Assembly: GCA_021323375.2 (NCBI GenBank)
Contig: JAJPCT020000018.1
Span: forward strand, 63,556 to 127,555
Reading direction: 5' to 3'
DNA: 64,000 nucleotides
Source: Candidatus Wolframiiraptor gerlachensis
Lineage (GTDB): Archaea > Thermoproteota > Nitrososphaeria_A > Caldarchaeales > Wolframiiraptoraceae
Position numbers and translations under genes: made by a program. Positions 1 through 13,844 of this stretch are shown piece after piece (positions within the stretch are counted from its first letter, which is position 1; every line of letters starts with the position of its first letter). Below the pieces are notes generated by a model that saw only the letters and a program-made list of their open reading frames with translations, was not told where the DNA came from and searched no databases.

Positions 1-729
1 CCCGATCCCGCACTTCATCCTCCTCTCTAGGGAGAAGTAGATCTGATTCTCCTTAAACCCGATCTGCTCAAGAGCCTTAACGGTGAACCTCATCATTATC
101 TCGGGGCCGCAGACGAGGGCTATAGTCCTCTCGACATCTATCCTCGCCATCGGTATAAGCTCTGTAACAACGCCGACATGATACCTCCAAGTCTCATCAG
201 GGTGATCGACGGTAAGGAGGAACTCCGTATTCGGTATCTCCCTATACCGGTCGAACTCATAGCGGTAGAGTAGGAGGCTGGGAGTTCTCGCTCCATAAAG
301 TATCGTTAGCTTCCCATACTTCCCCCTATTCCTTTCAACCTCTAGGATGACTCCCCGGAGTGGCGCTAGCCCAATACCGCCAGCCACGATGAGCACATCC
401 TTTCCAGCGAGCTTCTCGATTGGCCAGCCCTTACCATAGGGCCCCCTTATGCCAACCAAGTCGCCCTCACGCATCTTAAACAGGTAATCGGTCAATGCTC
501 CAACAGATCTTACAGTCTGAACTAGGATCCCATCCTCCAACCCGCATATTGAGACGGGGGCCTCACCCACGCCTGGAACGTATACCTCGGTGAATTGCCC
601 CGGCTTAGGCGCCTCAACGAGGCCCCCCTGTACTCTGAAGTAGAATGTCTTGGTATCTGGGGTCTCGGGGACTATCTTGACGATCTCGGCCCTAACCGGC
701 ACCATCGGAGTCCTGACTACCTCCTGCAC
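1..729 (-). CDS. Sulfhydrogenase/anaerobic sulfite reductase gamma-type FAD/NAD(P)-binding subunit, 3'-truncated by window edge
   Basis: Not in ORF track. Manual translation from GTG at 729: VQEVVRTPMVPVRAEIVKIVPETPDTKTFYF...IRGPYGKGWP...IVAGGIGLAPLR...ICGPEIMM-like...YFSLERRMKCGIG (FNR-like domain plus start of the 2Fe-2S motif). Overlaps the beta-subunit stop. Confidence 0.88.
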   Translation of the reverse strand, partial: MQEVVRTPMVPVRAEIVKIVPETPDTKTFYFRVQGGLVEAPKPGQFTEVYVPGVGEAPVSICGLEDGILVQTVRSVGALTDYLFKMREGDLVGIRGPYGKGWPIEKLAGKDVLIVAGGIGLAPLRGVILEVERNRGKYGKLTILYGARTPSLLLYRYEFDRYREIPNTEFLLTVDHPDETWRYHVGVVTELIPMARIDVERTIALVCGPEIMMRFTVKALEQIGFKENQIYFSLERRMKCGIG

Positions 730-1832
730 CTCGTCTCCACCTCCTTCACCACATCTCTCACAACTTGCCTAAGATCTATTCCTGCGGGACACCAGGTTAT
801 GCACCTGCCGCATCCCACACATCCAAATGTCCCGAACTGCCTGATCCAATACACGAACTTGTGGAGAACCCAGTGCCTATACCTAGCGTAGAGGCTTTTC
901 CTGAAGTGCCCCCCAGCGACCTGAGCATAGCTATAGCTATGGCATCCATCCCAGATCCTAATCCTCTTCGCGGATCCATCAAGCTCTGGCTCATCAATAA
1001 CATCAAAGCAGAAGCATGTAGGGCATACCATATTACAATTAGCACAGCCGAAACATCTCTCAGCAATCTTCCTATAAACCTCCGAGTCTAATCCCATCTC
1101 GAGGGTCTCAGGAAGATTTTCCAGAGTGAACTCCGCTCGAGCCTTCTTAGACGCATCCAGCATGAGGTTTCTGAGGAAGTCAACCTGTTCATCCTCGGCA
1201 GGCCTGAGACTGAGCTCGCTGAGTATATCCACCCCGAGATCGCTCCCCGGCTGGAAGATTACAACGCCGCTGCCAACCCTAGTATAGGCCACATCGAATC
1301 CCTTGAAAGCAAACGGGCCCGTGCCCATGGTCGCGCAGAAGCATGTATCTCCAGGCTCCACGCAGTTCTCGACGATGAGAAGAAGGTTCTCCCTAACCTT
1401 CCGATAATACTCGTCTCCCAGCTCGCCCTGAACACCATCCATGACATTTATCGCAGCAAGATCACAAGGCTTTATACCGAAAAAGGCCGTCTTGTAGAAC
1501 TCGAACCTCGGATATTCCACGCTCAGATCAGGCCTAATGATAAATAGGAGTAGCTCTGGGGGGTATAGGAACCTCTTTGGCGAGTCCGGGCCATGCCTGA
1601 ACCTGCCGCCATTATTGACAACGCGATAATATCCAGGAGCCTGCTTATCCCCATAGCCATATGGGATCTCATTGAAATCATTTAATTGCTCAAGCCTTAT
1701 GACGGAATTCACGAGCTTGGGCCCTATGACCCTATAACCTCTAGAAACCGCCACATTGAACAGCGACTTAAGGTCATCTTCCACACCGGAGTAGACCGAC
1801 CCCCGGAACAACACTTGATCTGCGAAGATCAT
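717..1832 (-). CDS. Sulfhydrogenase beta / AsrA-type 4Fe-4S dicluster subunit
   Basis: Motifs GIKPCD, CFCATMGTG, CFGCANCNMVCPTCFCF and GCVGCGRCITWCPAGID are typical of group 3b hydrogenase beta subunits. Confidence 0.9.
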   Translation of the reverse strand: MIFADQVLFRGSVYSGVEDDLKSLFNVAVSRGYRVIGPKLVNSVIRLEQLNDFNEIPYGYGDKQAPGYYRVVNNGGRFRHGPDSPKRFLYPPELLLFIIRPDLSVEYPRFEFYKTAFFGIKPCDLAAINVMDGVQGELGDEYYRKVRENLLLIVENCVEPGDTCFCATMGTGPFAFKGFDVAYTRVGSGVVIFQPGSDLGVDILSELSLRPAEDEQVDFLRNLMLDASKKARAEFTLENLPETLEMGLDSEVYRKIAERCFGCANCNMVCPTCFCFDVIDEPELDGSAKRIRIWDGCHSYSYAQVAGGHFRKSLYARYRHWVLHKFVYWIRQFGTFGCVGCGRCITWCPAGIDLRQVVRDVVKEVETRCRR

Positions 1833-1955: not shown

Positions 1956-3050
1956 TCAGGTTGCTGTCAATTTTCCAAGTTTATTCAAGCTAACGCTTCC
2001 CACATTGACGAGGCTTGGATTCAGCTTAACACTCATGTCTATTATGATCTCTGCAATCTCGGCTGAAAGCTCGGCCTGCCTCTTCATACTCCATATAAAT
2101 TGCGTGAAGTTGGGTCAAAGCACGCTCACATCGCATTTAACCGATCTATACCTTAACCTATCGATAATTTCATTTTCGCCGAGTTCTATATCCTCGAGAT
2201 ATCTTCTTATCGCCTCGTTGGCCAGCCTAATATCCTTTGAAAATATGGCTCTTATGGCCTTTTCACGAATATTCCGGCAACGTTCATAATATTCCGTAAG
2301 TTTTTGAAGTGTCTCCTTATCAAGTTCCACCTCGCAGGTCAGTATTTTTAGAACGCTCTTGGCGCCGAGCTTGGATAAATCGGCCATTCTTTCAAGGCAG
2401 TAGCCCATTATCGCGAGGAAAGATATCTCCAATGGTTGTGTTATCCCTAGATTCTCGGCAAAATTCCTCTTCTTATGAGCGGTTGAGAGGGCTCTGGAGA
2501 ATAGATAGTAGAGCTTATTTACCTCCTCATCCCTCAATATCACCATCTTAGCTAGTTCGCGATTCCCCTCAATAAACGCCCTGAAATACTCCTCCTGCAT
2601 GGATGAGACCAAGTTACAGATCCTCTCTAGAATTGAATAGATTGAGGACTTAAGGACATCTACTATACATTGTAGCACGACGTGCTGCTCAGTCTCATCC
2701 ATTACAGAGACCCCTGTCAGCAATTTTAACGCCTCCCGGATCTCCTTGATATGCCTATAGCTTAAGCGAGTTTTTGAGATAATCTCGATCATGTCGACAC
2801 CGGCAATATAGCTCGCAACAATCAGCCTGTTTAGAAGCCCGGGCTGATCGCATAGATCCGCATTTATCCTGCAGGCTTCAAGGGTATGGTCTGCGTCCGA
2901 TTTAGCGGGCCACAATCTTAACGAACCATCATTATATTCTTCGATAACTATGGCGTCCCCCTGCTTAAGACCATGCTCCCTAACCCACCAGTAGGGTAAG
3001 GAGATTGTTAAAGTGCCCTTACCAACACGCTGTATCTTACGCTGCTCCAT
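1956..3050 (-). CDS. AbrB-PhoU family regulator with an internal in-frame TGA at 2115-2117 (truncated or read-through)
   Basis: N-terminal RKIQRVGKGTLTISLP (AbrB) followed by PhoU repeats. The frame continues past TGA as PNFTQFIWSMKRQAELSAEIAEIIIDM, resembling the last PhoU helix, to TGA at 1956. Confidence 0.75.
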
Positions 3051-3165: not shown

Positions 3166-3202
3166 TATATATCAAGCTGGTTTGGTAAATGCTTGGGGTA
3201 AA

Positions 3203-3679
3203 ATGAGTGGGAAGATATGTTCCGGCAATCTGATCGAATCTCTCCAAAGAATTCAAGAAAAGCAAGGATTCTTGCCGAGAGACTCATTAATAAAGCTTTC
3301 CCGGGATACGCGGAGCCCTCTAAGCAGGATATTCGGTGTAGCGACATTTTACCACCAGTTCAGGCTGGAACCGCCTGGAAAAGTAACGATTGCTGTTTGC
3401 ATGGGGACTGCATGCCATCTTAGGGGGAATGCTGAGAACTATGAATTTCTAAGGAGATTCTTGGGTATACGGCCCGACAGATCGACGAGCGATGATGGCC
3501 TATTCTCCTTGGAGAAGGCTAGATGCTTTGGCTGCTGTAGCCTAGCCCCAGTGGTGAAGATCGGTGATATGCTCGTCGGCAAGGCCACGCCTAGGGAGCT
3601 TCAAAAGGCGATCTCCCGCGTTAGGGAGTCGATTCTGAGGGAGGAGGCTGCTCGCGGGGCTGGGGGTGGTAAGACATGA
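3203..3679 (+). CDS. HydC/NuoE-like thioredoxin-fold [2Fe-2S] subunit
   Basis: VATFYHQF, CMGTACHLRG and CFGCCSLAP motifs. Start chosen at ATG 3203. Confidence 0.92.
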   Translation: MSGKICSGNLIESLQRIQEKQGFLPRDSLIKLSRDTRSPLSRIFGVATFYHQFRLEPPGKVTIAVCMGTACHLRGNAENYEFLRRFLGIRPDRSTSDDGLFSLEKARCFGCCSLAPVVKIGDMLVGKATPRELQKAISRVRESILREEAARGAGGGKT

Positions 3680-5649
3680 TGAGGCAGGAGTACTGGACAT
3701 TAATGGATCCATGTTGCGATTATTGTCTTCATTCTCGGGACAATCCTTGCGCGAAGTATGTTGTCTGCAGAATGCGCGGGCCATTCTGTCACAGGAGTGT
3801 GGAGTGTAGGGAGAAGAGGCAGCGGAGGATCAGGGAGGTGCTTTACGGCTCGCAGGGCGTTAGAATTAATATCGGTGCATCGAGCTGCGGCTTGGCTGCT
3901 GGCGCCGAACGGGTCCTCGAGGCCGTGAAAGATGGTCTCAGATCAATGGGCGTGGAGGCGGAGGTTTCCGCGGTGGGCTGTCTGGGATTATGCTTCATGG
4001 AGCCCTTCATCGAGATTCAGAGCGAGGATGGTCCATCTCCGATCTATGGCTATGTATCGCCCGAGAATGTTGGCGATATTCTTGCCAGGTATTTTGAGGA
4101 GGGGAGCGTGGATGGCGCATTCGCGATCAGGAAGCGCACGGGCAGATTCAAGGACGAGGATAAGGTCCCCCTCTTGGATGAGCTTGATGTCTGGAGGAAG
4201 CAGGTGAAATGGGTTTCTAGAAACTGTGGTGTGATTAACCCGGAGTCGATCGAGGAGTATATTGTTACAGGCGGTTATGAGGGGCTTTCAAGAGCGCTGA
4301 CGATGAGGCCTGAGGAGGTTATCGAGGAGATTAGGCTGGCGGGGCTTAGGGGTAGAGGTGGAGCCGGGTTCCCAACATGGCTCAAGTGGAAGATATGCCG
4401 CGAGCAGCCATCAGAGGAGAAGTATGTCATCTGTAATGCTGATGAGGGTGATCCGGGGGCTTTCATGAATAGGCTCTTGGCGGAGTCTGATCCACACAGG
4501 GTGCTGGAGGGCATCATAATAGCTGGATACGCGATAGGCGCTTCTCAGGGCGTGATTTTTGTCAGGGCGGAGAAGCCCCTGATGGCTGCCAGGCTTGAGA
4601 AGGCCGTGGAGGATGCTCGCCGATGGGGGCTTCTGGGCGAGAATATCCTCGGATCGGGATTCAGCTTCGATGTGAGGGTGATGAGGAGTGCTGGGGCATT
4701 TGTATGCGGGGAGGAGACGGCTATGATAGCGGCTATCGAGGGGAGGCGTGCGATGCCGCGGCAGCGGCCACCATACCCAGCCTCTAAGGGCCTTTGGGAT
4801 AAGCCAACGGTGGTCAATAACGTCGAGACGCTGGCGCATGTCGCGACGATAATGGCGCATGGATGGCGGGAGTTCGCGAAATATGGGACTGAGCGGAGCA
4901 AGGGGACGAAGATGTTCTGCGTAACCGGCGGCGTTAAGAGGACAGGCGCATTCGAGGTTCCAATAGGCACCACGATCAGGACCCTCGTGTATGATATAGC
5001 TGGGGGGCCGCATGAAGGCAGAAGGATAAAGGCGGTTCAGATAGGAGGACCCTCAGGCGGGTGCCTCCCAGAGAGGCTATTCGACCTACCTATCGATTAT
5101 GAGAGCCTTCAGGAGGCTGGCGCGATAATGGGCTCCGGGGGCCTAGTGGTCATAGATGACACTAACTGCATGGTTGATGTGGCGAGATACTTCACTTCAT
5201 TCACCTTAGCCGAGTCTTGTGGTAAGTGTATACCATGCAGGGTTGGCACGAAGGCGTTGTATGACCGCTTATCCGCGATAGTTGAGGGTATGAGTAGCCA
5301 AGAGGACCTACAATTGCTCGAGGAGATTGGGATTATGATGAAGGAGGCGGCTCTATGCGCCTTAGGCGGGACCGCGCCAAATCCGATCCTATCATCACTC
5401 AGGTACTTTAGAGATGAATATGAGGCCCATATATTGGAGAAGAGATGCCCGGCGAAAGTTTGTAGAAAGCTTGTCTCATATGCTATAAACCGGGAGCTTT
5501 GCGTCAAATGTGGATTATGTGCCAAGTCATGTCCTGTGGGCGCGATAGCAAAAACAGCTGATGGTTACTTCATGATAGATGAGTCTAGGTGCATCAGATG
5601 TGGCACGTGCGTTATCACGTGTCCGAGAGGTGCTGTTGAGAAGAGGTGA
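3676..5649 (+). CDS. HydB/NuoF-like FMN/NAD(H)-binding diaphorase subunit of bifurcating type, with a Cys-rich N-terminal extension
   Basis: GRGGAGFP, NADEGDPGAFM, GAFVCGEETA, GGPSGG and ESCGKCIPCRVG motifs. Also an N-terminal 2Fe-2S domain (SSCGLAAGA...GCLGLCF) and a C-terminal 2x[4Fe-4S] domain. Confidence 0.93.
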   Translation: MMRQEYWTLMDPCCDYCLHSRDNPCAKYVVCRMRGPFCHRSVECREKRQRRIREVLYGSQGVRINIGASSCGLAAGAERVLEAVKDGLRSMGVEAEVSAVGCLGLCFMEPFIEIQSEDGPSPIYGYVSPENVGDILARYFEEGSVDGAFAIRKRTGRFKDEDKVPLLDELDVWRKQVKWVSRNCGVINPESIEEYIVTGGYEGLSRALTMRPEEVIEEIRLAGLRGRGGAGFPTWLKWKICREQPSEEKYVICNADEGDPGAFMNRLLAESDPHRVLEGIIIAGYAIGASQGVIFVRAEKPLMAARLEKAVEDARRWGLLGENILGSGFSFDVRVMRSAGAFVCGEETAMIAAIEGRRAMPRQRPPYPASKGLWDKPTVVNNVETLAHVATIMAHGWREFAKYGTERSKGTKMFCVTGGVKRTGAFEVPIGTTIRTLVYDIAGGPHEGRRIKAVQIGGPSGGCLPERLFDLPIDYESLQEAGAIMGSGGLVVIDDTNCMVDVARYFTSFTLAESCGKCIPCRVGTKALYDRLSAIVEGMSSQEDLQLLEEIGIMMKEAALCALGGTAPNPILSSLRYFRDEYEAHILEKRCPAKVCRKLVSYAINRELCVKCGLCAKSCPVGAIAKTADGYFMIDESRCIRCGTCVITCPRGAVEKR

Positions 5650-6314
5650 TGGTGATGAAGGTTAGGATAAATGGTTTGGAGGTGGAGGCAAGGGAGGGCG
5701 AGAGGATACTCGATGTCGCCAATCGCCTGGGCATTAGGATACCAACCCTCTGCTATCTCAAAAATGTGTATGAGGGCGCCTCCTGCAGAATCTGCGTCGT
5801 CGAGCTAGGTAATGGAAAGTTGATACCAGCCTGCGCCTATGAGGTGTCCGATGGCCTCACTATCAGCACCGATACTCCGAGGATTAGGGAGAGCAGGAGG
5901 GTGACGCTGGAGCTGCTGCTCTCTGCTCATAGGATTACGTGCCAGAATTGTCCCAAGAAGGGTGAGTGCACCCTAGTGGAGCTATGCTCCGAGTACGGTG
6001 TTGAGGGGATACCAGTATGCGCCGAGTGCCCTCTCCACGGAGAGGACTGCTTCATCGCGAGGAGCGAGATCTGCCTAGGCCCGATCACGGCTAGCGGATG
6101 CAAAGCTGAGTGTATTCGCGATGGGAGGACTTGCGAGGGCTGCAGGGGTCCAGTCACGAGGAGAGACGTGATAGAGTGGGCTAGAGGGATTTACATCGAG
6201 CATGGCATATCGTTGGAGGCGGTTCTTGAGAAGCTCAAGACATATTGTGCTTCATCACGCGAATTCGACCTAATTCGCGAGTATCTTGTGGTGAAGGAGG
6301 TGGTTGAGGGATGA
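5646..6314 (+). CDS. Chimeric Fe-S subunit: HydA/NuoG N-terminal [2Fe-2S] and His-[4Fe-4S] domains fused to the C-terminal Fe-S domain of a group-3 [NiFe] small subunit
   Basis: IPTLC..SCRICVVE..AC and HRITCQNCPKKGEC, then PVCAECPLHGEDC..CLGPITASGCKAEC..CEGCRGP. Confidence 0.85.
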   Translation: MMVMKVRINGLEVEAREGERILDVANRLGIRIPTLCYLKNVYEGASCRICVVELGNGKLIPACAYEVSDGLTISTDTPRIRESRRVTLELLLSAHRITCQNCPKKGECTLVELCSEYGVEGIPVCAECPLHGEDCFIARSEICLGPITASGCKAECIRDGRTCEGCRGPVTRRDVIEWARGIYIEHGISLEAVLEKLKTYCASSREFDLIREYLVVKEVVEG

Positions 6315-7600
6315 TGAGTGTTCCTGGTATTGATAGGATAGTGGGCCACGCGACCCTGGACATAGATATGGAGAGAGGGGCGCTGGATGCGCGTTTCAAG
6401 GTCTTGAATGATCCACGCTTCATAGAGGCCATAGTGCTAGGGAAGAAGTATTATGAGGTTCCATCAATTGTCTCTAGGATATGTGGGCCATGTAGCATAA
6501 GCCATACGATAACCGCTACGATGGCCATAGAGAAGGCTCTTGGAGTGAGCGTCCCGGAGCCGGTGAGAATTCTCAGGAGGATAGCTGTGCTTGGGGAAGT
6601 GGTTGAGAACCATCTCCTACATCTCACGCTGGTGTGCTTGCCGGAATACTTTGGATATGCCGATCTTATTGAGGTCGCCAAGTATAAGCCAGAGCTCCTC
6701 AAGAGCATACTGCTCATCAGGTCACAGCTTTCCAAGATCATGGAAATGATCTCTGGGAGGCTCGTCCACCCGAACACGCTGATGATAGGTGGGTTCTCCA
6801 AGACCCTTGGGAAGACGAAGCTCGAGGAGGCGAGGAACATGTTAAGGGAGATCAGGGGCAAGATCATCGATATCGCGGAAATATTTCTCGAGATCGAGTT
6901 CCCCGAGTTCGAGGTGATAATGGAAGCATGCGCATCCCTGAGGGACGACTACCTCTACATCGGGGATGAGATAATCACCTCGGATGAACGGAGGGTTAGA
7001 GCGGAGGATTATAGGAAGGTGTTCATAGAGGATGTGCAGCCATATACGACTTCGAAGAGGGTGACGCTTGAGGGGCTGCCCGTATACGTTGGGGCTAGGG
7101 CGAGGGTGAACTTGAAGGCCGACATGCTCTCAGAGAGGGCTAAATCCTATCTCAAGGCGAGGAGATTCCCGCTGAGAAACCCGTTCGATAATCTAAGGGC
7201 GCAGGCCATAGAACTGATTCACTGCATGGATGCCATGGAAATGTTAATTGAGGAGGTTCTCAATATCCTCGAAGCCAAGTCAATTCATGTAGGATCAGGG
7301 ATCATGATTAGGGAGGGTGCTGGTGTTGGGGTGTCTGAGGCCCCCCGCGGCATACTAATCCACCATTATGAGGTTAATTGCTGGGGCAACGTGGTCTATG
7401 CCAACGTGATAACGCCAACGACAATAAATTGTAGGCACGTGGAGGTCGCGGCCCTGGAGCTTATCAGGCACTATTTCTACGAGGATGCACCGGCCACTGA
7501 GATAGAACGCTACCTGAGAAAGCTCGTGCAGGCATATGACCCATGTCTCGGCTGCGCAACCCACTCGGTCAAGATAAACATTAGGGGGTTGAAAGCATGA
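6311..7600 (+). CDS. [NiFe] hydrogenase large subunit, group 3 (3b-like)
   Basis: L1 motif SRICGPC, EAPRG, and L2 motif DPCLGCATH followed by a cleavable C-terminal extension. Confidence 0.93.
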   Translation: MMSVPGIDRIVGHATLDIDMERGALDARFKVLNDPRFIEAIVLGKKYYEVPSIVSRICGPCSISHTITATMAIEKALGVSVPEPVRILRRIAVLGEVVENHLLHLTLVCLPEYFGYADLIEVAKYKPELLKSILLIRSQLSKIMEMISGRLVHPNTLMIGGFSKTLGKTKLEEARNMLREIRGKIIDIAEIFLEIEFPEFEVIMEACASLRDDYLYIGDEIITSDERRVRAEDYRKVFIEDVQPYTTSKRVTLEGLPVYVGARARVNLKADMLSERAKSYLKARRFPLRNPFDNLRAQAIELIHCMDAMEMLIEEVLNILEAKSIHVGSGIMIREGAGVGVSEAPRGILIHHYEVNCWGNVVYANVITPTTINCRHVEVAALELIRHYFYEDAPATEIERYLRKLVQAYDPCLGCATHSVKINIRGLKA

Positions 7601-8985
7601 GGATCGGCATATACTCATTCGGCGGATGCGAGGGCTGCAGATACTGGCTAATAGACTCGATGCTGAGAGTATGCGAGGAACTTGGCGCCGAGATAGTCTA
7701 TGAGCCCCTCATCGGGCTTTCCAAGGAGAACCCCGAATACGATTTGGTAATCATCGAGGGGGCTGTCTGCACCGACGAGGACTCCGAGAAGCTCCAGAGA
7801 CTGAGATCTCGAGCGAAGTATCTCGTCGCCCTAGGCTCCTGTGCCCTGCTCAGCGGTGTGCCAGGCCTTAAGAGGTTCACGGATCCACGCGCGGCCGAGA
7901 TGGTCTACTTTGGCAAGCCGTTGCCGAAGAAGCCGGTTGACGTGAAGCCGATAACTGCCTATATTCATGTAGATTATTGGATCAGGGGATGCCCGCCGGA
8001 TCGAGAGAACTTCGAGAGGCTCTTTAGGGCCATAATCTCCGGCATCGCCTCCGGGAGGCCTTTCAAGCTCCATGAGAGGAGACTGGAATTCTGCAGGGAG
8101 GAATTCACGAGCATCGAGGGAAGCGTGCTAAGGCTCGACGGCGACAAGTGCATGGTCTGCGGTAGATGTGTCGGCGCCTGCGAGAGGATGGGAGTCTACG
8201 CGATAGACTATGCGTACAGGAGCATAAGCACAGTCGTGACAACGCCCTTCTCAATACCCTTCGATGAGAGCACATGTGTGCTATGCGGCCAGTGTACGCT
8301 CGTCTGCCCGGTCGGCGCGATCCGCGAGAGGAGTGACCTAGAAAAGGTTCAAAGAATTCTATCAAGGCCCACGGCGCTAAGAGCTTACATAGAGCCTGAG
8401 AGCCTAGCAGCTATGTCCAGCTACTTCAACCGCGAGGTCGAGGTAATCATTGGAGCGCTTATCGCCAGAGGCTTTGAGAGCGTTGCAATATATGTGCCCG
8501 AGTATCACGCCGATGTCGAGAGACCGCTGATCCCCGCGAGCGAGGCCGAAAGGAGATTTATCAACATATTCTATCCACAGCTAGCTGAACTATTGTCGGA
8601 GCCGCCGGCTCCGCCGGGAGGATCATCAGTCCTGATAACGCCGTGCTTAGCTAAGAAGGCGCAGGCCCGTGAGGGATTAGTATTAACAACTCGCGAGGCG
8701 ATCAAGCTAATCTCCAACATCGACTTGGACGAGGTCGAGGGGACCCTCCCCATAATGCCCTCCAGAAAAAGCATCACCTTCAGGGAGGTTCATGGGCCGG
8801 ATAACGTGATTAGGTTCCTAGAGGAATATACGAGGGGGGTGCGCGTCAAGGAGCCGATGATACTTAAGATGTGCCCAGGCGGATGCCTTGGAGGCGGAGG
8901 ACAACCATACTATAACGAGGACCTCTATCGGAGGATGAATGAGGCGCTTGCGAGGATATCTTCCACGCTCCTAGTCATTGATTGA
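7597..8985 (+). CDS. Chimeric subunit: [NiFe] small-subunit N-terminal domain fused to HydA 2x[4Fe-4S] and a degenerate H-cluster domain
   Basis: GCEGC, EGAV, GSCA and GCPP, then CMVCGRCVGAC / CVLCGQCTLVCPVGA, ITPCLAKKAQA (P2-like) and MCPGGCLGGGGQP (P3-like). No TSCCP P1 motif. Confidence 0.87.
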   Translation: MRIGIYSFGGCEGCRYWLIDSMLRVCEELGAEIVYEPLIGLSKENPEYDLVIIEGAVCTDEDSEKLQRLRSRAKYLVALGSCALLSGVPGLKRFTDPRAAEMVYFGKPLPKKPVDVKPITAYIHVDYWIRGCPPDRENFERLFRAIISGIASGRPFKLHERRLEFCREEFTSIEGSVLRLDGDKCMVCGRCVGACERMGVYAIDYAYRSISTVVTTPFSIPFDESTCVLCGQCTLVCPVGAIRERSDLEKVQRILSRPTALRAYIEPESLAAMSSYFNREVEVIIGALIARGFESVAIYVPEYHADVERPLIPASEAERRFINIFYPQLAELLSEPPAPPGGSSVLITPCLAKKAQAREGLVLTTREAIKLISNIDLDEVEGTLPIMPSRKSITFREVHGPDNVIRFLEEYTRGVRVKEPMILKMCPGGCLGGGGQPYYNEDLYRRMNEALARISSTLLVID

Positions 8986-9453
8986 ATCCAGCTCGAGCAG
9001 GCGGGATATACTCTCCAATATTTTCGGGATCGCTTTCTCCACCTCCTCACTCAATCCTATTCCCGGACTTATCTCCTTGGCTCCCACGCCGACTAAGAGG
9101 ATCCTGCGGGGCATTTTATCCCTGAAGAGCTCGTATCCCAGCCTGATAGCTGAGACCACGTCAATATCATGCAGCGATTGAATTTCACCGACATGCTCCT
9201 GAGACAGCCCACCCAGATCCACCACGACCACCTCGCCCGGAGATAATCCGGATTTGACGACATCGACTATTATCAAGCCGTCAAATCCTGTGATCTCGTC
9301 CAGGAGCGTGAAGACGTCTAAGCCTGTTTCAAAGATCTTTACCTCGGCTGGTAGATCGCGCTTGAGAAGGATCTCGCCCACGACTAGGCCGAGAGCATCA
9401 TCTTTCATGAGCCTGCTGCCAACACATAGTATCAGGATTTTTCGGGCCCTCAT
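8971..9453 (-). CDS. Hydrogenase maturation endopeptidase (HycI/HybD family)
   Basis: VGSRLMKDDALG, IIVDVV, SLHD and GLSEEV motifs; located in a hydrogenase locus. Confidence 0.88.
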   Translation of the reverse strand: MRARKILILCVGSRLMKDDALGLVVGEILLKRDLPAEVKIFETGLDVFTLLDEITGFDGLIIVDVVKSGLSPGEVVVVDLGGLSQEHVGEIQSLHDIDVVSAIRLGYELFRDKMPRRILLVGVGAKEISPGIGLSEEVEKAIPKILESISRLLELDSIND

Positions 9454-9506: not shown

Positions 9507-10574
9507 CTAGCAGATCCTGGGAACCGGGTCTCCAAGGGGCATCGGCAGATATCTTAGCCCACCTATCTCGGTCTCAACGACGACCCCCTCAAGCTCATCG
9601 GAGAACCATCCTATTATCTCGGCCTCGCGGCCTAGTGGATGAGAGCGGAGGGCTTCCAAGACCTCCTCCGCGAACCTCTCGGAGACCGCTAGGACAACTC
9701 TTCCCTCGCATGCCAGTTCAAGCGGATCTATCCCCAGTATCTCGCAGCCGATTCTCACCTCATCGCGGACCGGTATAAGGGCTTCTTTCACGAGTATGCC
9801 GAGGCCCGTGGCCTCGCTCCACTCATTTAGAAGAGCCGCCAACCCCCCTCTAGTTGGATCCTTCGCCGCCACAACCCCTCCCACCTCGAGAGCCCTCTTC
9901 ATGAGATGATTCAATGGCGCGGTATCCGATTTTAGGCCCGGCGCCTCGAAGCCAAGCTCACCCCTAGCAGCTATAATTGTCATCGCATGGTCGCCGATGG
10001 GCCCCGAGACTATCAGCCTATCTCCCGGCCTCACATTCCGGGGATCAAGCCATCTCGATCTCAGGGATCTCCCATCAGATGCCACCCTCTCCAAGTTCTT
10101 ATCCAAGTATGGGCTCCTCCCACCGATGCCAGCCGTGTTGATTATCATCTCATCGAGCTTGCCCCTTTCCACGACCTTTGTGTCGCCTGTCACGATCTCG
10201 ACGCCAGCCTCCTCAGCCGTCTCCTCCATGCTCGATAGAATCCTATCCAGCTTCTCTATCTCGAAGCCCTCCTCGATCACTAAAGCGCATGAGATTGCTA
10301 TGGGCTCGCTTCCCACCACTGAGAGATCGTTCACGGTCCCGGAGACGCTGAGCCTCCCTATATCGCCTCCAGGGAAGAAGAGGGGCTTAACGGTATAGGA
10401 GTCTGTCGTGAACGCTATCCCATCGACAACAGCCGAGTCGGCGAGGAGGGGGAGAGGGATCTCAATAACCCTCCTCTGCTTAAACCTTGGAAGAATATGC
10501 TCCCTGATAAGCTTATGCATGTAGAGGCCGCCAGCACCATGTGCTATGCTTATCCTATTATCCACGCCCACCAA
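9507..10574 (-). CDS. hypE: Hydrogenase maturation carbamoyl dehydratase HypE
   Basis: AHGAGG, TTDSYTVKPLFFPGGDIG, GDTKVV and DPTRGGL motifs, with C-terminal PRIC. Confidence 0.96.
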   Translation of the reverse strand: MVGVDNRISIAHGAGGLYMHKLIREHILPRFKQRRVIEIPLPLLADSAVVDGIAFTTDSYTVKPLFFPGGDIGRLSVSGTVNDLSVVGSEPIAISCALVIEEGFEIEKLDRILSSMEETAEEAGVEIVTGDTKVVERGKLDEMIINTAGIGGRSPYLDKNLERVASDGRSLRSRWLDPRNVRPGDRLIVSGPIGDHAMTIIAARGELGFEAPGLKSDTAPLNHLMKRALEVGGVVAAKDPTRGGLAALLNEWSEATGLGILVKEALIPVRDEVRIGCEILGIDPLELACEGRVVLAVSERFAEEVLEALRSHPLGREAEIIGWFSDELEGVVVETEIGGLRYLPMPLGDPVPRIC

Positions 10575-10599
10575 AAATCACCCCACACTCACGATCTCC

Positions 10600-11775
10600 T
10601 CAGGGGCCTCGCCTCACGATTAATCCACAGACCCCGCTCATACATCTGATATCCTTAACCAATATCCTGTTCTGAGCCCATATCCTGCATGTTCCCTCAA
10701 TCCCAACCATCGCCGGGCCCACCGGAGTCGATGGGGTACACTTCTTCATGTATAGGGGGCAGTCCGGTGGATCAATAATCCCCTTTATTATCTCGGCGCA
10801 TCTAGCCTCCGACGGGAAGCAGTCTCCTCCTCCATGCTCTAGGCCATAAGTCCTTCTAGCATCAACTTGGGAGAACATTTCCTTAAAGTTCATGGCACTT
10901 TCAGGTATTATCGCGACACCTCTCCAATAGCCATCCTCGAAATCGAAGACCTCTTGGAGAGCCTTCTGCGCCTTCAGGTTCCCCTCCCACGTCACAGATC
11001 TCACATACTCGTTCTCCATCCTCGGGGCGCGATCCCTTAGCTGCTTGAGAACCATGTAGATCGCCATCAAGACGTCTATGGGCTCGAAGCCCGCGAAGAC
11101 CATCGGCTTGCCACACTTATCGAAATACGGCTTATACGCCTTCATACCGCTCACGGTCGAGGCGTGGCCCGGATTTATGAAAGCATCTATCTCGAGATCC
11201 TCGGATTCCGCTAGAAGCCCGACAGCCGGCGGGACATACCTGTGGGCGGAGAGGACCTTAAGGTTTCTCGGAAGCCCCTTCAGGACGAAATAGGCCACGG
11301 TTGGCGCCGTGGTCTCAAAGCCTGCTCCAAGGAATACATACTCCTTATCCGGGTTACTGCTAGCGATCTTGACAGCATCCATGAAGCTATACACAACCCC
11401 AACCCTCCCACCCTCAGCAGCACAATCCTCCAGCGAGATCATCCTAGAACCCTTAGCCCTAGACACATCACCATAGGTAAGCACATGGATCCCATCAAGC
11501 GCGAGCCCGACGGCCACATCTATATCAGATGCAGGGGTTATGCAGACTGGGCAGCCGGGTCCAGCCCTAACCTCAACATTATCCGGCAGAAGAGCCCTAA
11601 TACCCCAATGAGTTATGGTCCACTCATGAGTCCCACACACATGCATTATCCTAACCCTCGGAAGATCCCTAGCAACCTCCCAGATCTTCTCAACTAGCCT
11701 CCTAGCAAGAGCTGGATCCCTATATCTCGAAAGAATCACCCTCACACGATCCAAGGACCCCATACCATCTATCAC
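10600..11775 (-). CDS. hypD: Hydrogenase maturation protein HypD
   Basis: MHVCGTHE, GPGCPVC, GFETTAP and GFEP motifs, plus a C-terminal Cys cluster. Confidence 0.96.
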   Translation of the reverse strand: MIDGMGSLDRVRVILSRYRDPALARRLVEKIWEVARDLPRVRIMHVCGTHEWTITHWGIRALLPDNVEVRAGPGCPVCITPASDIDVAVGLALDGIHVLTYGDVSRAKGSRMISLEDCAAEGGRVGVVYSFMDAVKIASSNPDKEYVFLGAGFETTAPTVAYFVLKGLPRNLKVLSAHRYVPPAVGLLAESEDLEIDAFINPGHASTVSGMKAYKPYFDKCGKPMVFAGFEPIDVLMAIYMVLKQLRDRAPRMENEYVRSVTWEGNLKAQKALQEVFDFEDGYWRGVAIIPESAMNFKEMFSQVDARRTYGLEHGGGDCFPSEARCAEIIKGIIDPPDCPLYMKKCTPSTPVGPAMVGIEGTCRIWAQNRILVKDIRCMSGVCGLIVRRGP

Positions 11776-11881: not shown

Positions 11882-12856
11882 TCAGTCATAAAGATGGCAG
11901 GCTACTAAGTGCCCCGGTTGATACTGCCTGAGCTCAGGAATCACCTGCTTGCATACGTCCATTACATATGGGCATCTCGGGTGAAATCTACATCCCGCCG
12001 GGGGGTTAGATAAGTCGGGTGGCTCACCTTTAATCACCTCCCTGATCTTAAATCTGTTTGAGGGATCCGGGTCGGGAATAGCATCTATCAGTGCCTTAGT
12101 ATATGGGTGTAACGGATTCTTCAACAGTGTAGAGGAGGGCCCCAATTCTATTATCTTTCCAGCATACATCACCGCGATTCTCTCGGAGAAGTATTTTGAC
12201 GTGGCGATATCATGTGTTATGTAAAGGTATGATAGATTATGCTTCCTCTGAAGTTCCCTCAACAATAAAAGTATCTCCACCCTGACAGAAGCATCTAGCA
12301 TAGAGACTGGCTCGTCAGCCACTATGAAGTCCGGCCTAAGAACCAGCGCCCTAGCGATAGCCACCCTCTGCCTTTGGCCGCCGCTGAGCATGTGTGGGTA
12401 TTTTCTCGCGAACTCCTCGGGAGGTATAAGCCTCACCTCCTCTAGGGCCCTCATAACAAGCTCAGCCCGCTCCTCCCTCGTCCCAATACTATGTATCTCT
12501 AGAGGCTCCTCTATCACCTTAAAAACACTGTAACTGGGGTCGATGCTCGCATATGGATCTTGGAAGATCATTGCCATGTGTCTCCTGAGCTTCTTCATCT
12601 CGTTATAATTTGTGTTTGTGATCTCTTGACCCTTGAAGAAGATCTTGCCAGCAGTCGGCTCAATTATTCTCAATAATGTCTTTCCAAGAGTTGTTTTACC
12701 GCAGCCGCTTTCACCCACCAATGCCAGTGTTTCACCGGGATAAATCTCGAGGCTAACTCCATCAACTGCCCTAACATAACCAGCTATCCTGAACAAGCCT
12801 TTTCTAACAGGGAAATAGGTTTTAAGATCTATCGCCCTTATGACAGGATCACTCAT
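11882..12856 (-). CDS. oppF: Oligopeptide/dipeptide ABC transporter ATPase (OppF/DppF-like)
   Basis: GESGCGKT, LSGGQRQR, DEPVSMLD, HPYT and PPAGCRFHPRC motifs. Confidence 0.92.
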   Translation of the reverse strand: MSDPVIRAIDLKTYFPVRKGLFRIAGYVRAVDGVSLEIYPGETLALVGESGCGKTTLGKTLLRIIEPTAGKIFFKGQEITNTNYNEMKKLRRHMAMIFQDPYASIDPSYSVFKVIEEPLEIHSIGTREERAELVMRALEEVRLIPPEEFARKYPHMLSGGQRQRVAIARALVLRPDFIVADEPVSMLDASVRVEILLLLRELQRKHNLSYLYITHDIATSKYFSERIAVMYAGKIIELGPSSTLLKNPLHPYTKALIDAIPDPDPSNRFKIREVIKGEPPDLSNPPAGCRFHPRCPYVMDVCKQVIPELRQYQPGHLVACHLYD

Positions 12857-13830
12857 GCACCTTCACCTCCATACAGCCAACAAACAACATAATGCCCTCC
12901 TCCGATATCGAACTCAGGAGGCTCCTCAACATCACACTTGCCTTTTATCATGTAGGGGCATCTTGGATGGAATCTACATCCTGAAGGTGGATTTCTTAAG
13001 TCGGGCGGCGCGCCCGGTATGAATGATGGTGGGATATCCTGTCTTAACCTCGGGATACTATTGAGTAGCAGTTTCATATATGGATGGGCGGGGGAAAGAT
13101 AAACGTCATCAGCTGGCCCGCGTTCGACAATCTTTCCAGCATACATAACTGCGACAGAGTCTGCCAGCTCACTGCTCAACGCGAGGTCATGTGTTATGAA
13201 AATATAGGATAAGCCTCGTTCCTGCTTCAGCTGCTTTAAGAGATTGATTATGTTGGCCTGGGTTATTATGTCGAGTGCCGACGTTGGCTCATCGAGGATA
13301 ACTATCTTCGGCCTAGTCACTAGGGCCATTGCGATACAGACTCTTTGCTTCATCCCACCGCTGAGCTCGTGAGGATATCTTTCAGAAACTCCTTTAGGCA
13401 GTCCAACCTCCTCTAGAGCCTCCTCAGCTATCGCTAGCGCGTCTTTCTTATTAAGACCAAAATTATGAATTAGGGGCTCAGCCACCTGAAATCCGACCTT
13501 CAGCACCGGGTTTAGGGCGTTCATAGCTCCCTGAAATACTATAGATATGATCCTCCACCTTACATTTCTTCTGAACTCCTCCTCAGGGAGCTTCATGACA
13601 TCTAATCCATTCATGTAAATCTCGCCTTCGTATCTTGCGGTATTTGGTGGAAGCAGGCGCATCAATGCCATGGCTGTGGAGCTCTTCCCGCACCCGCTCT
13701 CCCCAACTAAAGCTATAGCACGTCTACTCTGAAGCTCAAAGAATATTCCGTCAACTGCTCTTACAATAGATCTTCCGGACCTATAATGCAGAAAAAGCTT
13801 TTTAACACTTAATACCTGCGGCTCGCTCAT
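12853..13830 (-). CDS. oppD: Oligopeptide/dipeptide ABC transporter ATPase (OppD/DppD-like)
   Basis: GESGCGKS, LSGGMKQR, DEPTSALD and PPSGCRFHPRC motifs. Confidence 0.92.
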   Translation of the reverse strand: MSEPQVLSVKKLFLHYRSGRSIVRAVDGIFFELQSRRAIALVGESGCGKSSTAMALMRLLPPNTARYEGEIYMNGLDVMKLPEEEFRRNVRWRIISIVFQGAMNALNPVLKVGFQVAEPLIHNFGLNKKDALAIAEEALEEVGLPKGVSERYPHELSGGMKQRVCIAMALVTRPKIVILDEPTSALDIITQANIINLLKQLKQERGLSYIFITHDLALSSELADSVAVMYAGKIVERGPADDVYLSPAHPYMKLLLNSIPRLRQDIPPSFIPGAPPDLRNPPSGCRFHPRCPYMIKGKCDVEEPPEFDIGGGHYVVCWLYGGEGA

Positions 13831-13844
13831 CTCATTTCACCATA

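What the first reader, a model, noticed from the sequence alone, without database searches (positions are those of the whole stretch)
3203..8985. Hybrid [NiFe]/[FeFe] hydrogenase operon built from reciprocally swapped HydA and small-subunit halves
Seen in sequence: the gene order is hydC - hydB - [HydA N-term :: small-subunit C-term] - [NiFe] large subunit - [small-subunit N-term :: HydA C-term]. The breakpoints are complementary. HydA is cut after the His-ligated [4Fe-4S] (near 6000) and resumes at its 2x[4Fe-4S] domain (near 8100). The small subunit is cut after GCPP (near 8000), and its distal CLGP...C..CRG domain sits in the upstream gene. Inference: a circularly permuted small-large [NiFe] cassette sits inside the hydA of a hydABC operon, so every Fe-S domain of both parents is kept but split across two interlocking chains. 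This would give a HydABC-type flavin module powered by a [NiFe] site. Established: bifurcating [NiFe] HydABCSL enzymes and archaeal hybrid [NiFe]-[FeFe] complexes have been reported; I cannot tell whether this exact double swap has been described.
Basis: partly seen in the sequence, partly recalled or inferred. Interest (0 to 1): 0.92.

Follow-up and report, generated by a model that had tools for sequence, protein, structure and literature searches.

The report
Known archaeal hybrid hydrogenase operon variant
This is a real five-gene operon for an archaeal hydrogen enzyme built from interlocked halves of two unrelated hydrogenase types, a kind first published in 2024, here in a pared-down form whose iron-only half may no longer make hydrogen.

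Summary
The operon hydC-hydB-hydD-hyhL-(hyhS::hydA) lies at 3182-8985. The 222-aa HydD is HydA's N-terminus (TmHydA 1-118) joined to the C-domain of a group-3b [NiFe] small subunit (P. furiosus SHI delta 161-245). The 462-aa protein is the small subunit's N-domain (delta 4-145) joined to HydA from its 2x[4Fe-4S] domain onward (TmHydA 120-234, then L2 and L3). It is not an assembly artefact: 32 of 47 related loci keep the gene order, and contigs from four studies bridge both junctions. The kind is already published as the group F [FeFe] / group 3f [NiFe] hybrid hydrogenase of archaea (Greening et al., Cell 2024). The window comes from a Wolframiiraptor-like hot-spring archaeon and belongs to a "short" clade. 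In this clade the H-domain is halved (L2-L3 spacing 76 against 140-156). The cluster ligands are Ser315 plus three Cys, as in active A. woodii HydA1. The neighbouring position, which I recall as the proton-relay Cys, is unconstrained. HydE and HydG are not found. My best reading is a HydBC-type bifurcating module driven by the [NiFe] site, with the HydA relic as an Fe-S arm. A second, minimal H-cluster site is not excluded.

The parts
3182..3679 (+). hydC: NuoE/HoxE-like thioredoxin-fold [2Fe-2S] subunit (165 aa from the TTG start; the true start may lie a few codons later).
   Evidence: PF01257 E 2.6e-37. HoxE and NuoE NCBIfam profiles match below their cut-offs. Its stop overlaps the hydB start by 4 nt.
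3676..5649 (+). hydB: Bfu-type flavoprotein (657 aa). It has a Cys-rich CCxxC prefix (residues 8-55), an N-terminal [2Fe-2S]-like domain, an FMN/NADH site, the NuoF [4Fe-4S] and a C-terminal 2x[4Fe-4S].
   Evidence: Pfam and NCBIfam domains. It matches solved bifurcating B subunits over residues 63-656: NfnB 9n5u_B E 1e-209, A. mobile HydB 7t2r_B E 6e-201, TmHydB E 1e-184. Nqo1 covers only residues 190-591.
5646..6314 (+). hydD: chimeric 222-aa 'conduit' subunit with 16 cluster ligands for [2Fe-2S], a His-ligated [4Fe-4S] and two further [4Fe-4S] clusters.
   Evidence: The ligands C36, C47, C50, C63, H95, C99, C102, C108, C125, C128, C135, C143, C152, C156, C163 and C166 are kept in 39 of 39 rows, except C102 (38 of 39).
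5655..6008 (+). HydD residues 4-121: the HydA/NuoG N-terminal module ([2Fe-2S] plus His-ligated [4Fe-4S]).
   Evidence: Matches 7q4v_A 5-124 (E 3e-27), 7t2r_A 6-122 and 7p5h_A 1-118. The model aligns to 8a6t_A 1-121 with Z 15.3, rmsd 2.3, 116 aligned.
6009..6257 (+). HydD residues 122-204: C-terminal (medial and distal cluster) domain of a group-3b [NiFe] small subunit.
   Evidence: Matches 9nez_A 161-245 (E 1.8e-13) with 8 Cys aligned, and MvhG/VhuG at positions 202-250 of those chains. ShyD profile 157-238 of 240.
6311..7600 (+). hyhL: [NiFe] large subunit (429 aa), nearest to group 3b, with a C-terminal extension that a maturation protease would remove.
   Evidence: Matches 5yxy_A E 2e-62 and SHI alpha 9nez_D E 8e-62; A. 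mobile HydL 7t2r_D scores only 2.6e-33. R56, C58, G59, C61, H65 and D410, P411, C412, C415 are invariant in 21 of 21.
7597..8985 (+). hyhS::hydA fusion (462 aa).
   Evidence: AF2 model mean pLDDT 77.5. Model aligns to CpI 4xdc_A with Z 26.5, 302 aligned, rmsd 3.3.
7597..8019 (+). Fusion residues 1-141: small-subunit N-domain with proximal-cluster ligands C11, C14, C82 and C132.
   Evidence: Matches 9nez_A 4-145 (E 1e-19). The four Cys are kept in 45 of 45 rows.
8080..8421 (+). Fusion residues 162-275: HydA F-domain (2x[4Fe-4S]) and the start of the H-domain.
   Evidence: Matches 7p5h_A 120-234 (E 2e-19); 8a6t_A 138-223 covers fusion residues 177-261 (E 1.6e-21). The eight Cys are kept in 45 of 45 rows.
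8422..8982 (+). Fusion residues 276-462: halved H-domain relic. The site residues are S315 (8539-8541), C350 (8644-8646), C426 (8872-8874) and C430 (8884-8886).
   Evidence: L2 and L3 pieces match TmHydA (E 1.4e-5). Spacing table. S315, E318 and C350 are kept in 45 of 45 rows; C426 and C430 in 43 of 43 complete rows. pLDDT is 80-96.
8971..9453 (-). [NiFe] large-subunit maturation endopeptidase (HycI/HyaD family), convergent with the fusion gene and overlapping its end by 15 nt.
   Evidence: PF01750 E 2e-18; TIGR00072 scores 102.9 bits against a cut-off of 47. It sits in the same place in L001-L003, L004, L026 and L027.
9507..11775 (-). hypE (9507-10574) and hypD (10600-11775), [NiFe] cofactor maturation genes. 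The names are my own reading of the translations and of their conserved position.
   Evidence: ORFs. Homologs lie at the same place in L001-L003. I did not scan these two against any family library.

Best explanation
The operon encodes a five-subunit soluble hydrogenase of the archaeal 'hybrid' kind (group F/3f of Greening et al. 2024). HydC and HydB form the NADH/FMN electron-bifurcating or confurcating module of the Bfu/HydABC family. The electron-wire subunit HydA and a group-3b [NiFe] small subunit have each been cut once and their halves joined crosswise. HydD therefore carries [2Fe-2S], the His-ligated [4Fe-4S] and the small subunit's medial and distal clusters. The last gene carries the proximal cluster, HydA's two F-clusters and a halved H-domain. 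HyhL holds the [NiFe] site. Inferred wiring: [NiFe], then the proximal cluster (fusion), then the medial and distal clusters (HydD C-domain), then the His-ligated cluster (HydD N-part), then HydB FMN with NAD(H) and ferredoxin. The HydA relic forms a side arm, F-clusters to a Ser315+Cys350+Cys426+Cys430 [4Fe-4S] site. I take that site to be an electron relay or docking end, not a second catalytic site. In a fermenting hot-spring archaeon the likely direction is NADH plus reduced ferredoxin to H2. Shown: domain identities, complementary cuts, ligand conservation, synteny and contiguity. Inferred: the wiring, bifurcation, the direction, and the lack of a [2Fe] subsite.
For: HydB matches solved bifurcating B subunits over residues 63-656, including the N- and C-terminal cluster domains that Nqo1 lacks. 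[NiFe] ligands are invariant in 21 of 21, and the protease, hypE and hypD lie beside the operon. All accessory-cluster ligands are conserved: fusion 45 of 45, HydD 38-39 of 39. In the complex model the HydD C-domain docks on fusion residues 81-94, 115-118 and 130-138, which surround proximal ligands C82 and C132, and on HyhL. Median score 0.86, best of 3 controls 0.11, at least 84% contact agreement between runs, partner pLDDT at least 83. That mark was reached by 58 of 80 solved complexes and 2 of 110 mismatched pairs, and it may partly reflect likeness to solved small/large subunit complexes. Evidence against a catalytic H-site: L1-L2 spacing is 36 against 56 in classical HydA, and L2-L3 is 76 against 140-156, with the segment holding the classical 'GGVMEA' helix absent. 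The position beside the Ser ligand takes 10 different residues in 45 rows, and the CpI K358 position is R in 31, W in 10 and K in 4. HydE gives 0 matches, HydG gives 0, and HydF gives only GTPase-domain hits of 55.6 bits against a cut-off of 325 in an 89.5%-complete genome. All four Bathyarchaeia genomes whose operon lacks hyhL still encode a hybrid-type hyhL elsewhere (298-304 bits), so the [NiFe] site is kept.
Against: The Ser+3Cys ligand set equals that of A. woodii HydA1, which carries a typical, active H-cluster (passages). L3 'CPGGCxxGGGQP' is kept in most rows (Q in 35 and P in 36 of 43), and K or R follows L2. The long fusions of the sister clade also lack a Cys at the CpI 299 position (W there). 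The paper reports H2 production from one group F fusion of Thermoplasmata after artificial maturation. The same paper says most archaea with [FeFe] hydrogenases lack HydEFG. The halved domain folds with high confidence onto CpI (Z 26.5). The complex job left out the fusion's own ferredoxin domain. That domain could instead sit beside the proximal cluster, as in FrhG: the FrhG profile covers residues 2-240 and 9nez_A aligns to model range 1-240. No RNA or biochemical data exist here.
Confidence: 0.57

Rival explanations
1. A true two-site hybrid. The halved H-domain still binds a complete H-cluster ([4Fe-4S] through Ser315 and three Cys, plus a [2Fe] subsite made by an unknown archaeal route). 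Both a [NiFe] and a minimal [FeFe] site would then feed the same HydBC module.
For: Ser at this ligand position is compatible with an active H-cluster in A. woodii. S315, E318, C350, C426 and C430 are invariant, and GGGQP is mostly kept. The fold matches CpI with Z 26.5. The published group F fusion Th1 made H2 after artificial maturation, and the paper reports that most of the 130 archaeal genomes with [FeFe] hydrogenases lack HydEFG. The long fusions also have no Cys at the CpI 299 position.
Against: L2-L3 spacing is 68-78 in the short clade against 127-130 in long fusions and 140-156 in classical HydA. The position next to the ligand is unconstrained and the K358 position varies. Pfam Fe_hyd_lg_C matches only its second half at E 2e-5. 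I could not see which form Th1 and Th2 are, because the supplements are closed.
Confidence: 0.3
2. Alternative wiring. Residues 1-240 of the fusion act as a complete FrhG-like small subunit (proximal cluster plus the two ferredoxin-type clusters), as the published model describes. HydD would be only a downstream four-cluster conduit, and its small-subunit-like C-domain would not sit beside the proximal cluster. This rival concerns wiring only and is independent of the question whether the H-site is catalytic, so its confidence does not sum with the others.
For: The FrhG profile TIGR03294 positions 3-218 of 228 cover residues 2-240 (E 5e-19). SHI delta 9nez_A aligns to model range 1-240 (Z 16.3, rmsd 5.1, 186 aligned). 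The paper speaks of three relay clusters of the [NiFe] component on the fusion and a converging cluster on the hybrid subunit.
Against: The ferredoxin domain matches HydA F-domains best (E 1.6e-21), and the match runs on into the H-domain. No FrhG chain is among the 54 sequences found at E up to 0.001. The HydD C-domain docks at the proximal-cluster face in the complex model (0.86 against 0.11), and all 8 of its Cys are conserved in both clades. However, that job lacked the competing domain.
Confidence: 0.35
3. The H-domain relic binds no metal cluster and is only a structural scaffold or interface.
For: The domain is strongly reduced. Some branches have degenerate L3 tails ('GSGAP', 'CSVAALA').
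Against: S315, C350, C426 and C430 are invariant in all complete rows (45 of 45 and 43 of 43), which a mere scaffold would not require.
Confidence: 0.07
4. Assembly artefact or pseudogene. The chimeras would arise from misjoined contigs or frameshifts.
For: None found.
Against: The same chimeras occur in 44 fusion and 38 HydD homologs from other genomes and in 9 of 9 HydD of the sister clade. Contigs of 4 runs from 4 studies bridge positions ~6006 and ~8060-8120 with no joints, indels or loose ends. The frames are open, with 4-nt overlaps between genes.
Confidence: 0.01

Closest known systems
Group F [FeFe] / group 3f [NiFe] hybrid hydrogenase clusters of archaea (Greening et al., Cell 2024, PMC11216029; section 10 read whole, other parts as passages)
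   Same: The same five genes are present: HydC, HydB, a four-cluster 'conduit' HydD, the group-3 large subunit HyhL and an N-terminal HyhS :: C-terminal HydA fusion. The paper reports the cluster in Thermoproteia, Bathyarchaeia and others. HydD keeps the same 16 ligands in the Thermoplasmata-type loci I fetched (9 of 9).
   Different: The window's clade is separate from the Thermoplasmata-named fusions in the tree (100/99 support). Its H-domain is about half as long. The ligand position holds Ser where those have 'WCP' Cys. Its HydB has 657 aa against 1055-1066 in 8 of the 9 fetched loci that hold a whole hydB (607 aa in L112), so it has no extra domain. Its gene order is C-B-D-L-fusion against fusion-C-B-D-L. 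The paper calls the HydA part a true H-cluster domain with conserved Cys. I did not find the crosswise split of the small subunit spelled out in the text I read, although its methods use MvhG (5ODC chain E) as a template for HydD.
NiFe-HydABCSL of Acetomicrobium mobile (Feng et al. 2022, PMC8880783, passages; PDB 7t2r)
   Same: It has a Bfu-type HydBC module and a HydA-type wire feeding from a [NiFe] site. Its HydA has no H-cluster, and a terminal [4Fe-4S] (A5) stands in its place. The window's HydB matches 7t2r_B at E 6e-201.
   Different: There HydA is one chain and HydS is a separate subunit with one cluster. Here both are cut and cross-joined, and the medial and distal clusters are present. 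The window's HyhL is nearer to SHI alpha (8e-62) than to A. mobile HydL (2.6e-33). Unsplit operons of that type lie beside hybrid operons in L108 and L110.
Pyrococcus furiosus soluble hydrogenase I (group 3b; PDB 9nez, 9e1j)
   Same: The large subunit and both halves of the small subunit are its nearest solved relatives.
   Different: SHI delta is one 261-aa chain and passes electrons to beta and gamma (FAD/NADPH). Here delta is split over two genes and wired to HydBC. A separate SHI-like operon lies just upstream (window 1-1832 plus G000:C18:61417-62556).
Electron-bifurcating [FeFe] HydABC of A. woodii, T. kivui and T. maritima (PDB 7q4v, 8a6t, 7p5h; Katsyv et al. 2023 and Furlan et al. 2022, passages)
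   Same: The HydB and HydC module and the HydA N-terminus and F-domain are shared. A. woodii HydA1 naturally has Ser301 at the cluster-ligand position to which the window's S315 aligns. The alignment is anchored by an ungapped 'YP' 12 residues downstream.
   Different: Those HydA proteins are single chains with a full-size H-domain, the neighbouring Cys and no [NiFe] module.

Membership tests
Group F/3f hybrid hydrogenase cluster (Greening 2024) | One protein with an N-terminal group-3 small-subunit domain and a C-terminal HydA domain. | tested here: met
   Oxidored_q6 at residues 11-144 and the ShyD profile at 1-155. The HydA F-domain and the L2 and L3 motifs follow. The model aligns to CpI with Z 26.5.
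Group F/3f hybrid hydrogenase cluster (Greening 2024) | Contiguous hyhL, hydB, hydC and a four-cluster hydD. | tested here: met
   The order is kept in 32 of 47 related loci; 9 are cut by contig ends and 6 lack hyhL in the operon.
Group F/3f hybrid hydrogenase cluster (Greening 2024) | A 'true' H-cluster domain with the conserved cysteine ligands. | tested here: inconclusive
   Three Cys plus Ser315 are present at the ligand positions. The domain is halved and the CpI 299 position is variable. Ser is tolerated in A. woodii.
Group F/3f hybrid hydrogenase cluster (Greening 2024) | Falls within the published group F clade. | tested here: inconclusive
   It sits in a sister clade to the fusions that NCBI names Thermoplasmata. 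The paper's sequence list is in supplements I could not open.
Group F/3f hybrid hydrogenase cluster (Greening 2024) | H2 production after [2Fe]adt maturation. | not testable with these tools
   This needs a bench assay.
Bfu / HydABC electron-bifurcating family | B subunit with the FMN/NADH site, an N-terminal [2Fe-2S] domain and a C-terminal 2x[4Fe-4S] domain. | tested here: met
   Residues 63-656 align end to end with 9n5u_B, 9bov_B, 8oh5_B, 7t2r_B, 7q4v_B and 7p5h_B (E 1e-209 to 1e-184). Nqo1 covers only 190-591. Pfam domains.
Bfu / HydABC electron-bifurcating family | NuoE-like [2Fe-2S] C subunit. | tested here: met
   PF01257 E 2.6e-37.
Bfu / HydABC electron-bifurcating family | A subunit carrying [2Fe-2S], His-[4Fe-4S] and 2x[4Fe-4S] in one chain. 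| tested here: not met
   All these clusters are present but divided between HydD (residues 4-121) and the fusion (residues 162-275).
Bfu / HydABC electron-bifurcating family | Coupled NAD(H) and ferredoxin turnover. | not testable with these tools
   This needs an enzyme assay.
NiFe-HydABCSL (A. mobile type) | Separate single-cluster HydS and an unsplit HydA. | tested here: not met
   The small-subunit N-domain is fused to the HydA C-part, and the HydA N-part is fused to the small-subunit C-domain. Unsplit examples for comparison are in L108 and L110.
Group 3b [NiFe] sulfhydrogenase | Large subunit with the N-terminal RxCGxC...H and C-terminal DPCxxC motifs. | tested here: met
   R56, C58, G59, C61, H65, D410, P411, C412 and C415 are invariant in 21 of 21. 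The best solved relatives are 5yxy_A and 9nez_D.
Group 3b [NiFe] sulfhydrogenase | Intact delta small subunit with beta and gamma partners in the operon. | tested here: not met
   Delta is split. Beta- and gamma-like genes lie only in the neighbouring divergent operon.
[FeFe] hydrogenase catalytic subunit (group A) | The L1 TSC[CS]P, L2 MPCxxK and L3 CxxxCxxGGGQP motifs in a full H-domain. | tested here: not met
   L1 reads IPASEAE. L2 (TPCLAKK) and L3 (CPGGCLGGGGQP) are present. Spacings are 36 and 76 against 56 and 140-156. Scores fall below the NCBIfam cut-offs (103 bits against 765).

The most novel reading that the evidence does not exclude
The short clade's roughly 200-residue H-domain relic, with a Ser plus three Cys ligand set and no relay cysteine, still assembles an H-cluster without HydEFG. 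It would then be the smallest natural [FeFe] catalytic scaffold, thermostable, and working on the same bifurcating module as a [NiFe] site in at least 44 species-level genomes of Thermoproteota and related archaea.
Probability: 0.3. Interest if true: 0.8.

Novelty: new member of a known kind. Interest (0 to 1): 0.45.

Why it matters
The enzyme kind is already known and was called remarkable when published. This window adds a hot-spring Caldarchaeales (Wolframiiraptor-like) member. It also shows that a large, widespread clade of these operons carries a much reduced HydA part. That clade gives a natural series, from long to intermediate to short forms, for asking how much of the H-domain is needed to hold an H-cluster. 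It also bears on whether 'hybrid' enzymes keep two catalysts or decay to [NiFe]-only bifurcating hydrogenases. The residue-level map of the crosswise split gives a clear wiring hypothesis for structural work. For the organism, the operon supplies a plausible NADH plus ferredoxin route to H2 beside the Mbh hydrogenase. Mbh is the only hydrogenase named in the passages of the genus description that my search for that word returned.

Tried and rejected
1. My first reading was that the H-site had lost a ligand (three Cys only) and so could not hold a cluster. I rejected it. One search gave CpI numbering and showed that A. woodii HydA1 reads TSCSPGW. (Katsyv 2023, passages) states that this Ser301 replaces a Cys ligand in an active enzyme. 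S315 aligns to that position.

2. I considered an FrhG-like reading of fusion residues 1-240. I kept it as a rival wiring rather than rejecting it.

3. I considered that the Bathyarchaeia operons without hyhL show a [NiFe]-less enzyme, which would have argued for a catalytic H-site. I rejected it. All 4 of 4 genomes searched hold a hybrid-type hyhL elsewhere. In three of them it has no adjacent small subunit.

4. Misassembly is rejected (and the comparative data).

5. Expression: no RNA holder was listed, so nothing can be said about it.

6. The VIA second look at the HydD model listed only N-domain matches. The C-domain's fold was therefore not tested by structure, only by sequence.

7. A regex for the 8-Cys motif found nothing because the last motif differs there (CxxC[HFN], not CRG). 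The alignment showed all ligands present.

8. The complex job used the fusion cut at residue 165, so competition with its own ferredoxin domain was not tested.

9. Literature. Searches and the passages read gave no explicit statement of the reciprocal split or of the short clade's Ser ligand. This is not proof of absence, because figures and supplements of Greening 2024 (Tables S1-S2, Figures S2-S4) could not be seen.

10. Rows chosen or dropped.
- One search used 44 of 47 loci; L042, L043 and L055 gave under 350 aligned residues. L021 and L025 end before L3.
- Alignment A4 holds 23 of the 38 HydD homologs.
- Alignment A5 holds 20 of the 36 hyhL listed for L001-L046 (one of those 36 is the second, non-hybrid hyhL of L008).
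- The tree's 66 rows were picked by hand from 379 stored proteins and 44 locus sequences.
- With a single outgroup clade, the tree cannot test whether the fusions share one origin. It shows only the separation of three clades.

Full report
THE OBSERVATION. Five ORFs lie head to tail on the + strand: 3182-3679, 3676-5649, 5646-6314, 6311-7600 and 7597-8985. Each start overlaps the previous stop codon by 4 nt. Pfam and NCBIfam name them as follows.
- hydC is a NuoE-like [2Fe-2S] protein.
- hydB is a NuoF-like flavoprotein with extra cluster domains.
- The 222-aa protein has Fer2_4 and NADH-G_4Fe-4S_3, and its residues 121-201 match positions 157-238 of the 240-position ShyD (sulfhydrogenase small subunit) profile.
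- hyhL is a [NiFe] large subunit.
- The 462-aa protein has residues 1-154 matching ShyD positions 1-155, residues 175-260 matching the [FeFe] hydrogenase A6 profile at 137-223, and residues 344-434 matching only the second half of Fe_hyd_lg_C (E 2e-5).

THE BREAKPOINTS ON SOLVED CHAINS.
- On P. furiosus SHI delta (9nez_A, 261 aa), fusion residues 1-141 cover 4-145 (E 1e-19). HydD residues 122-204 cover 161-245 (E 1.8e-13), with all eight cysteines aligned.
- On T. maritima HydA (7p5h_A), HydD 4-121 covers 1-118 and fusion 162-275 covers 120-234. L2 and L3 follow at 346-390 and 456-504.
- Natural controls exist. Intact small subunits of ordinary sulfhydrogenase operons (L095, L114-L117) hit the fusion with their first half and HydD with their second. 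An unsplit 619-aa HydA in L108 and L110 hits HydD 1-120 and fusion 181-265.

NOT AN ARTEFACT.
- A scan of one genome per species kept 80 loci. Of the 47 that match most of the fusion, 32 show hydC-hydB-hydD-hyhL-fusion. Nine are cut by contig ends but agree as far as they reach. Six, all titled Bathyarchaeia or Bathyarchaeota, have hydD followed directly by the fusion.
- Contigs of four runs from four studies of hot-spring metagenomes cover 5400-9000. Single contigs bridge ~6006 (X10 record 1, X5 record 19, X4 record 11) and ~8060-8120 (X4 record 16, X5 record 22, X10 record 7). There are no joints, indels or loose ends.
- The nearest relatives are an uncultured Nitrososphaeria MAG (92%) and Candidatus Wolframiiraptor allenii (87%) and W. 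sinensis (77%).

COFACTOR SITES.
- In 45 fusion sequences, the four proximal-cluster Cys and the eight F-domain Cys are invariant.
- In 39 HydD sequences, the sixteen ligands are invariant except one Cys in one row.
- The [NiFe] motifs of HyhL are invariant in 21 of 21.
- HydB aligns over residues 63-656 with solved bifurcating B subunits (NfnB, StnB, A. mobile HydB, A. woodii, T. kivui and T. maritima HydB; E 1e-209 to 1e-184). Complex I Nqo1 covers only residues 190-591.
- HyhL is nearest to group 3b enzymes (5yxy_A at 2e-62, SHI alpha at 8e-62) and farther from A. mobile HydL (2.6e-33).

THE HydA RELIC.
- The model of the fusion (mean pLDDT 77.5; 80-96 over residues 250-460) aligns to CpI with Z 26.5 (302 residues, rmsd 3.3) and to TmHydA with Z 25.7. 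The fold is HydA's.
- The domain is halved. L1-L2 spacing is 36 residues against 56. L2-L3 spacing is 76 against 140-156 in ten classical HydA, 127-130 in thirteen long fusions and 81-93 in ten intermediate fusions. The stretch that holds 'GGVMEA' in classical enzymes is absent.
- L1 reads IPASEAE. fixes the numbering: CpI has C299-C300-P301, and A. woodii HydA1 has C300-S301-P302.
- Katsyv et al. 2023 (passages) state that Ser301 replaces a Cys ligand of the H-cluster's [4Fe-4S] in an enzyme with a typical, active H-cluster.
- The window's S315 aligns to that position, anchored by an ungapped 'YP' twelve residues on, and is invariant in 45 of 45. The cubane site therefore has a full Ser+3Cys ligand set.
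- The neighbouring position is CpI C299, which I recall as the proton-relay Cys; PDB titles list C299A and C299D variants. It takes ten different residues in the short clade. The CpI K358 position is R in 31, W in 10 and K in 4 rows.

FAMILY STRUCTURE.
- An exhaustive profile search found 101 proteins at E up to 1e-30. These include short fusions (427-501 aa), intermediates (476-529 aa, L1 'SWC[KRL]') and long ones (563-581 aa, L1 'SWCP').
- NCBI names the latter two Thermoplasmata, Thermoplasmatota or Euryarchaeota proteins. Some are annotated as [Fe-Fe] hydrogenase large subunit C-terminal domain-containing.
- I built a careful tree of 66 hand-picked rows on the HydA-derived part (333 columns). 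It separates classical HydA (100/99), long plus intermediate fusions (100/99) and short fusions (100/99).
- Within the short clade, two proteins with Cys in L1 (P0126 'PCC' and P0127 'PCS') stand outside a 31-row clade (100/97) that has none. The window is in that 31-row clade.
- The intermediate-type loci fetched from metagenomes have the order fusion-hydC-hydB-hydD-hyhL. HydB has 1055-1066 aa in 8 of the 9 loci that hold a whole hydB (607 aa in L112). HydD keeps all sixteen ligands in 9 of 9.
- The crosswise split therefore predates the two clades, and the gene order is a cyclic permutation of the window's. This leaves the 'cassette inserted into hydA' picture unproven.

GENOME CONTEXT.
- The genome (1.28 Mb, 27 contigs, 89.5% complete) gives no match to HydE or HydG, and only sub-threshold GTPase hits to HydF.
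- It has three [NiFe] large subunits: the window's, one just upstream of the window, and one on contig 22.
- It has one Fe_hyd_lg_C match, the fusion itself.
- The genus description, in the passages that my search for the word 'hydrogenase' returned, names only the membrane-bound Mbh. A hot-spring survey assigns group 3b and 3d enzymes to Caldarchaeales (passages).

COMPLEX MODEL. I folded HyhL, fusion residues 1-165 and HydD residues 118-222, each with its alignment.
- The median score was 0.86 against a best control of 0.11. Runs agreed in at least 84% of contacts, and the partner's pLDDT was at least 83.
- That mark was reached by 58 of 80 solved complexes and 2 of 110 mismatched pairs. These counts hold only roughly here, because my own alignments were used and three chains were sent.
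- The contacts on the fusion surround the proximal-cluster ligands C82 and C132.
- Because intact small/large subunit complexes are solved, the pass may come partly from likeness. It supports binding but does not show it. The fusion's own ferredoxin domain was not in the job.

MECHANISM. My best reading and its rivals are given in their own sections of this report. The identity as a Bfu-type hybrid hydrogenase is near certain. [NiFe]-only catalysis stands at about 0.57 and a second minimal H-cluster at about 0.3. The wiring through HydD's small-subunit domain is favoured but open.

WHAT IS KNOWN.
- Greening et al. 2024 (section 10 read whole; other passages) describe 21 archaeal genomes with exactly these five genes. 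They define group F by the HyhS-HydA fusion, model the complex, and report H2 production from one Thermoplasmata fusion after artificial maturation.
- They call HydD a NuoG-like conduit with four clusters. Their methods list MvhG (5ODC chain E) among the templates for it.
- I did not find the reciprocal split spelled out, nor the short clade's reduced H-domain and Ser ligand.
- The finding is therefore a new member of a known kind, with features that deserve a note.

Noticed in passing
window 1-1832 (- strand) and G000:C18:61417-62556: A second, ordinary sulfhydrogenase-type (group 3b) operon lies divergent from the hybrid operon. Beta- and gamma-like genes are at 717-1832 and 1-729, and a [NiFe] large subunit lies just before the window's start. 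The genome thus holds an intact relative of the donor beside the split copy.
   Followed up: partly
window 2115-3050 (- strand): A PhoU-domain protein with an N-terminal AbrB/MazE-like DNA-binding domain sits between the two hydrogenase operons. It is kept at the same place in L001-L003, and a weaker match is in L045. It is a candidate regulator.
   Followed up: no
window 3697-3840 (HydB residues 8-55): HydB starts with a Cys-rich 'CCxxC NuoF prefix' domain (NF040902, 63.5 bits against a cut-off of 45). None of the solved bifurcating B subunits covers it; their matches start at residues 63-97. Relatives in Archaeoglobales, Ignisphaera and Pyrobaculum loci align only from about residue 47-55.
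   Followed up: no
L015, L019, L025, L028, L043, L055; L093, L094, L096: Bathyarchaeia-type operons lack hyhL between hydD and the fusion. In 3 of the 4 genomes searched, a hybrid-type hyhL sits elsewhere without any small subunit, behind a gene of about 436 aa with a ferredoxin-like C-terminus.
   Followed up: partly
L108:25-6148 and L110:3-6100 (- strand): An unsplit A. mobile-type hydC-hydB-hydA(619 aa)-small(183-188 aa)-large operon lies back to back with a hybrid operon on the same metagenome contigs.
   Followed up: no
P0138 (859 aa), P0337 (869 aa): In these proteins a small-subunit N-domain plus ferredoxin domain, like fusion residues 2-298, is joined to histidine-kinase and response-regulator domains. 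One is named as from a Planctomycetota bacterium. They may be redox or H2 sensors built on the same module.
   Followed up: no
window 11882-15275 (- strand): Two ABC ATPase genes (324 and 325 aa) and a permease (476 aa) follow the hyp genes. I read them by eye as oligopeptide/dipeptide-type transporter genes and did not scan them.
   Followed up: no
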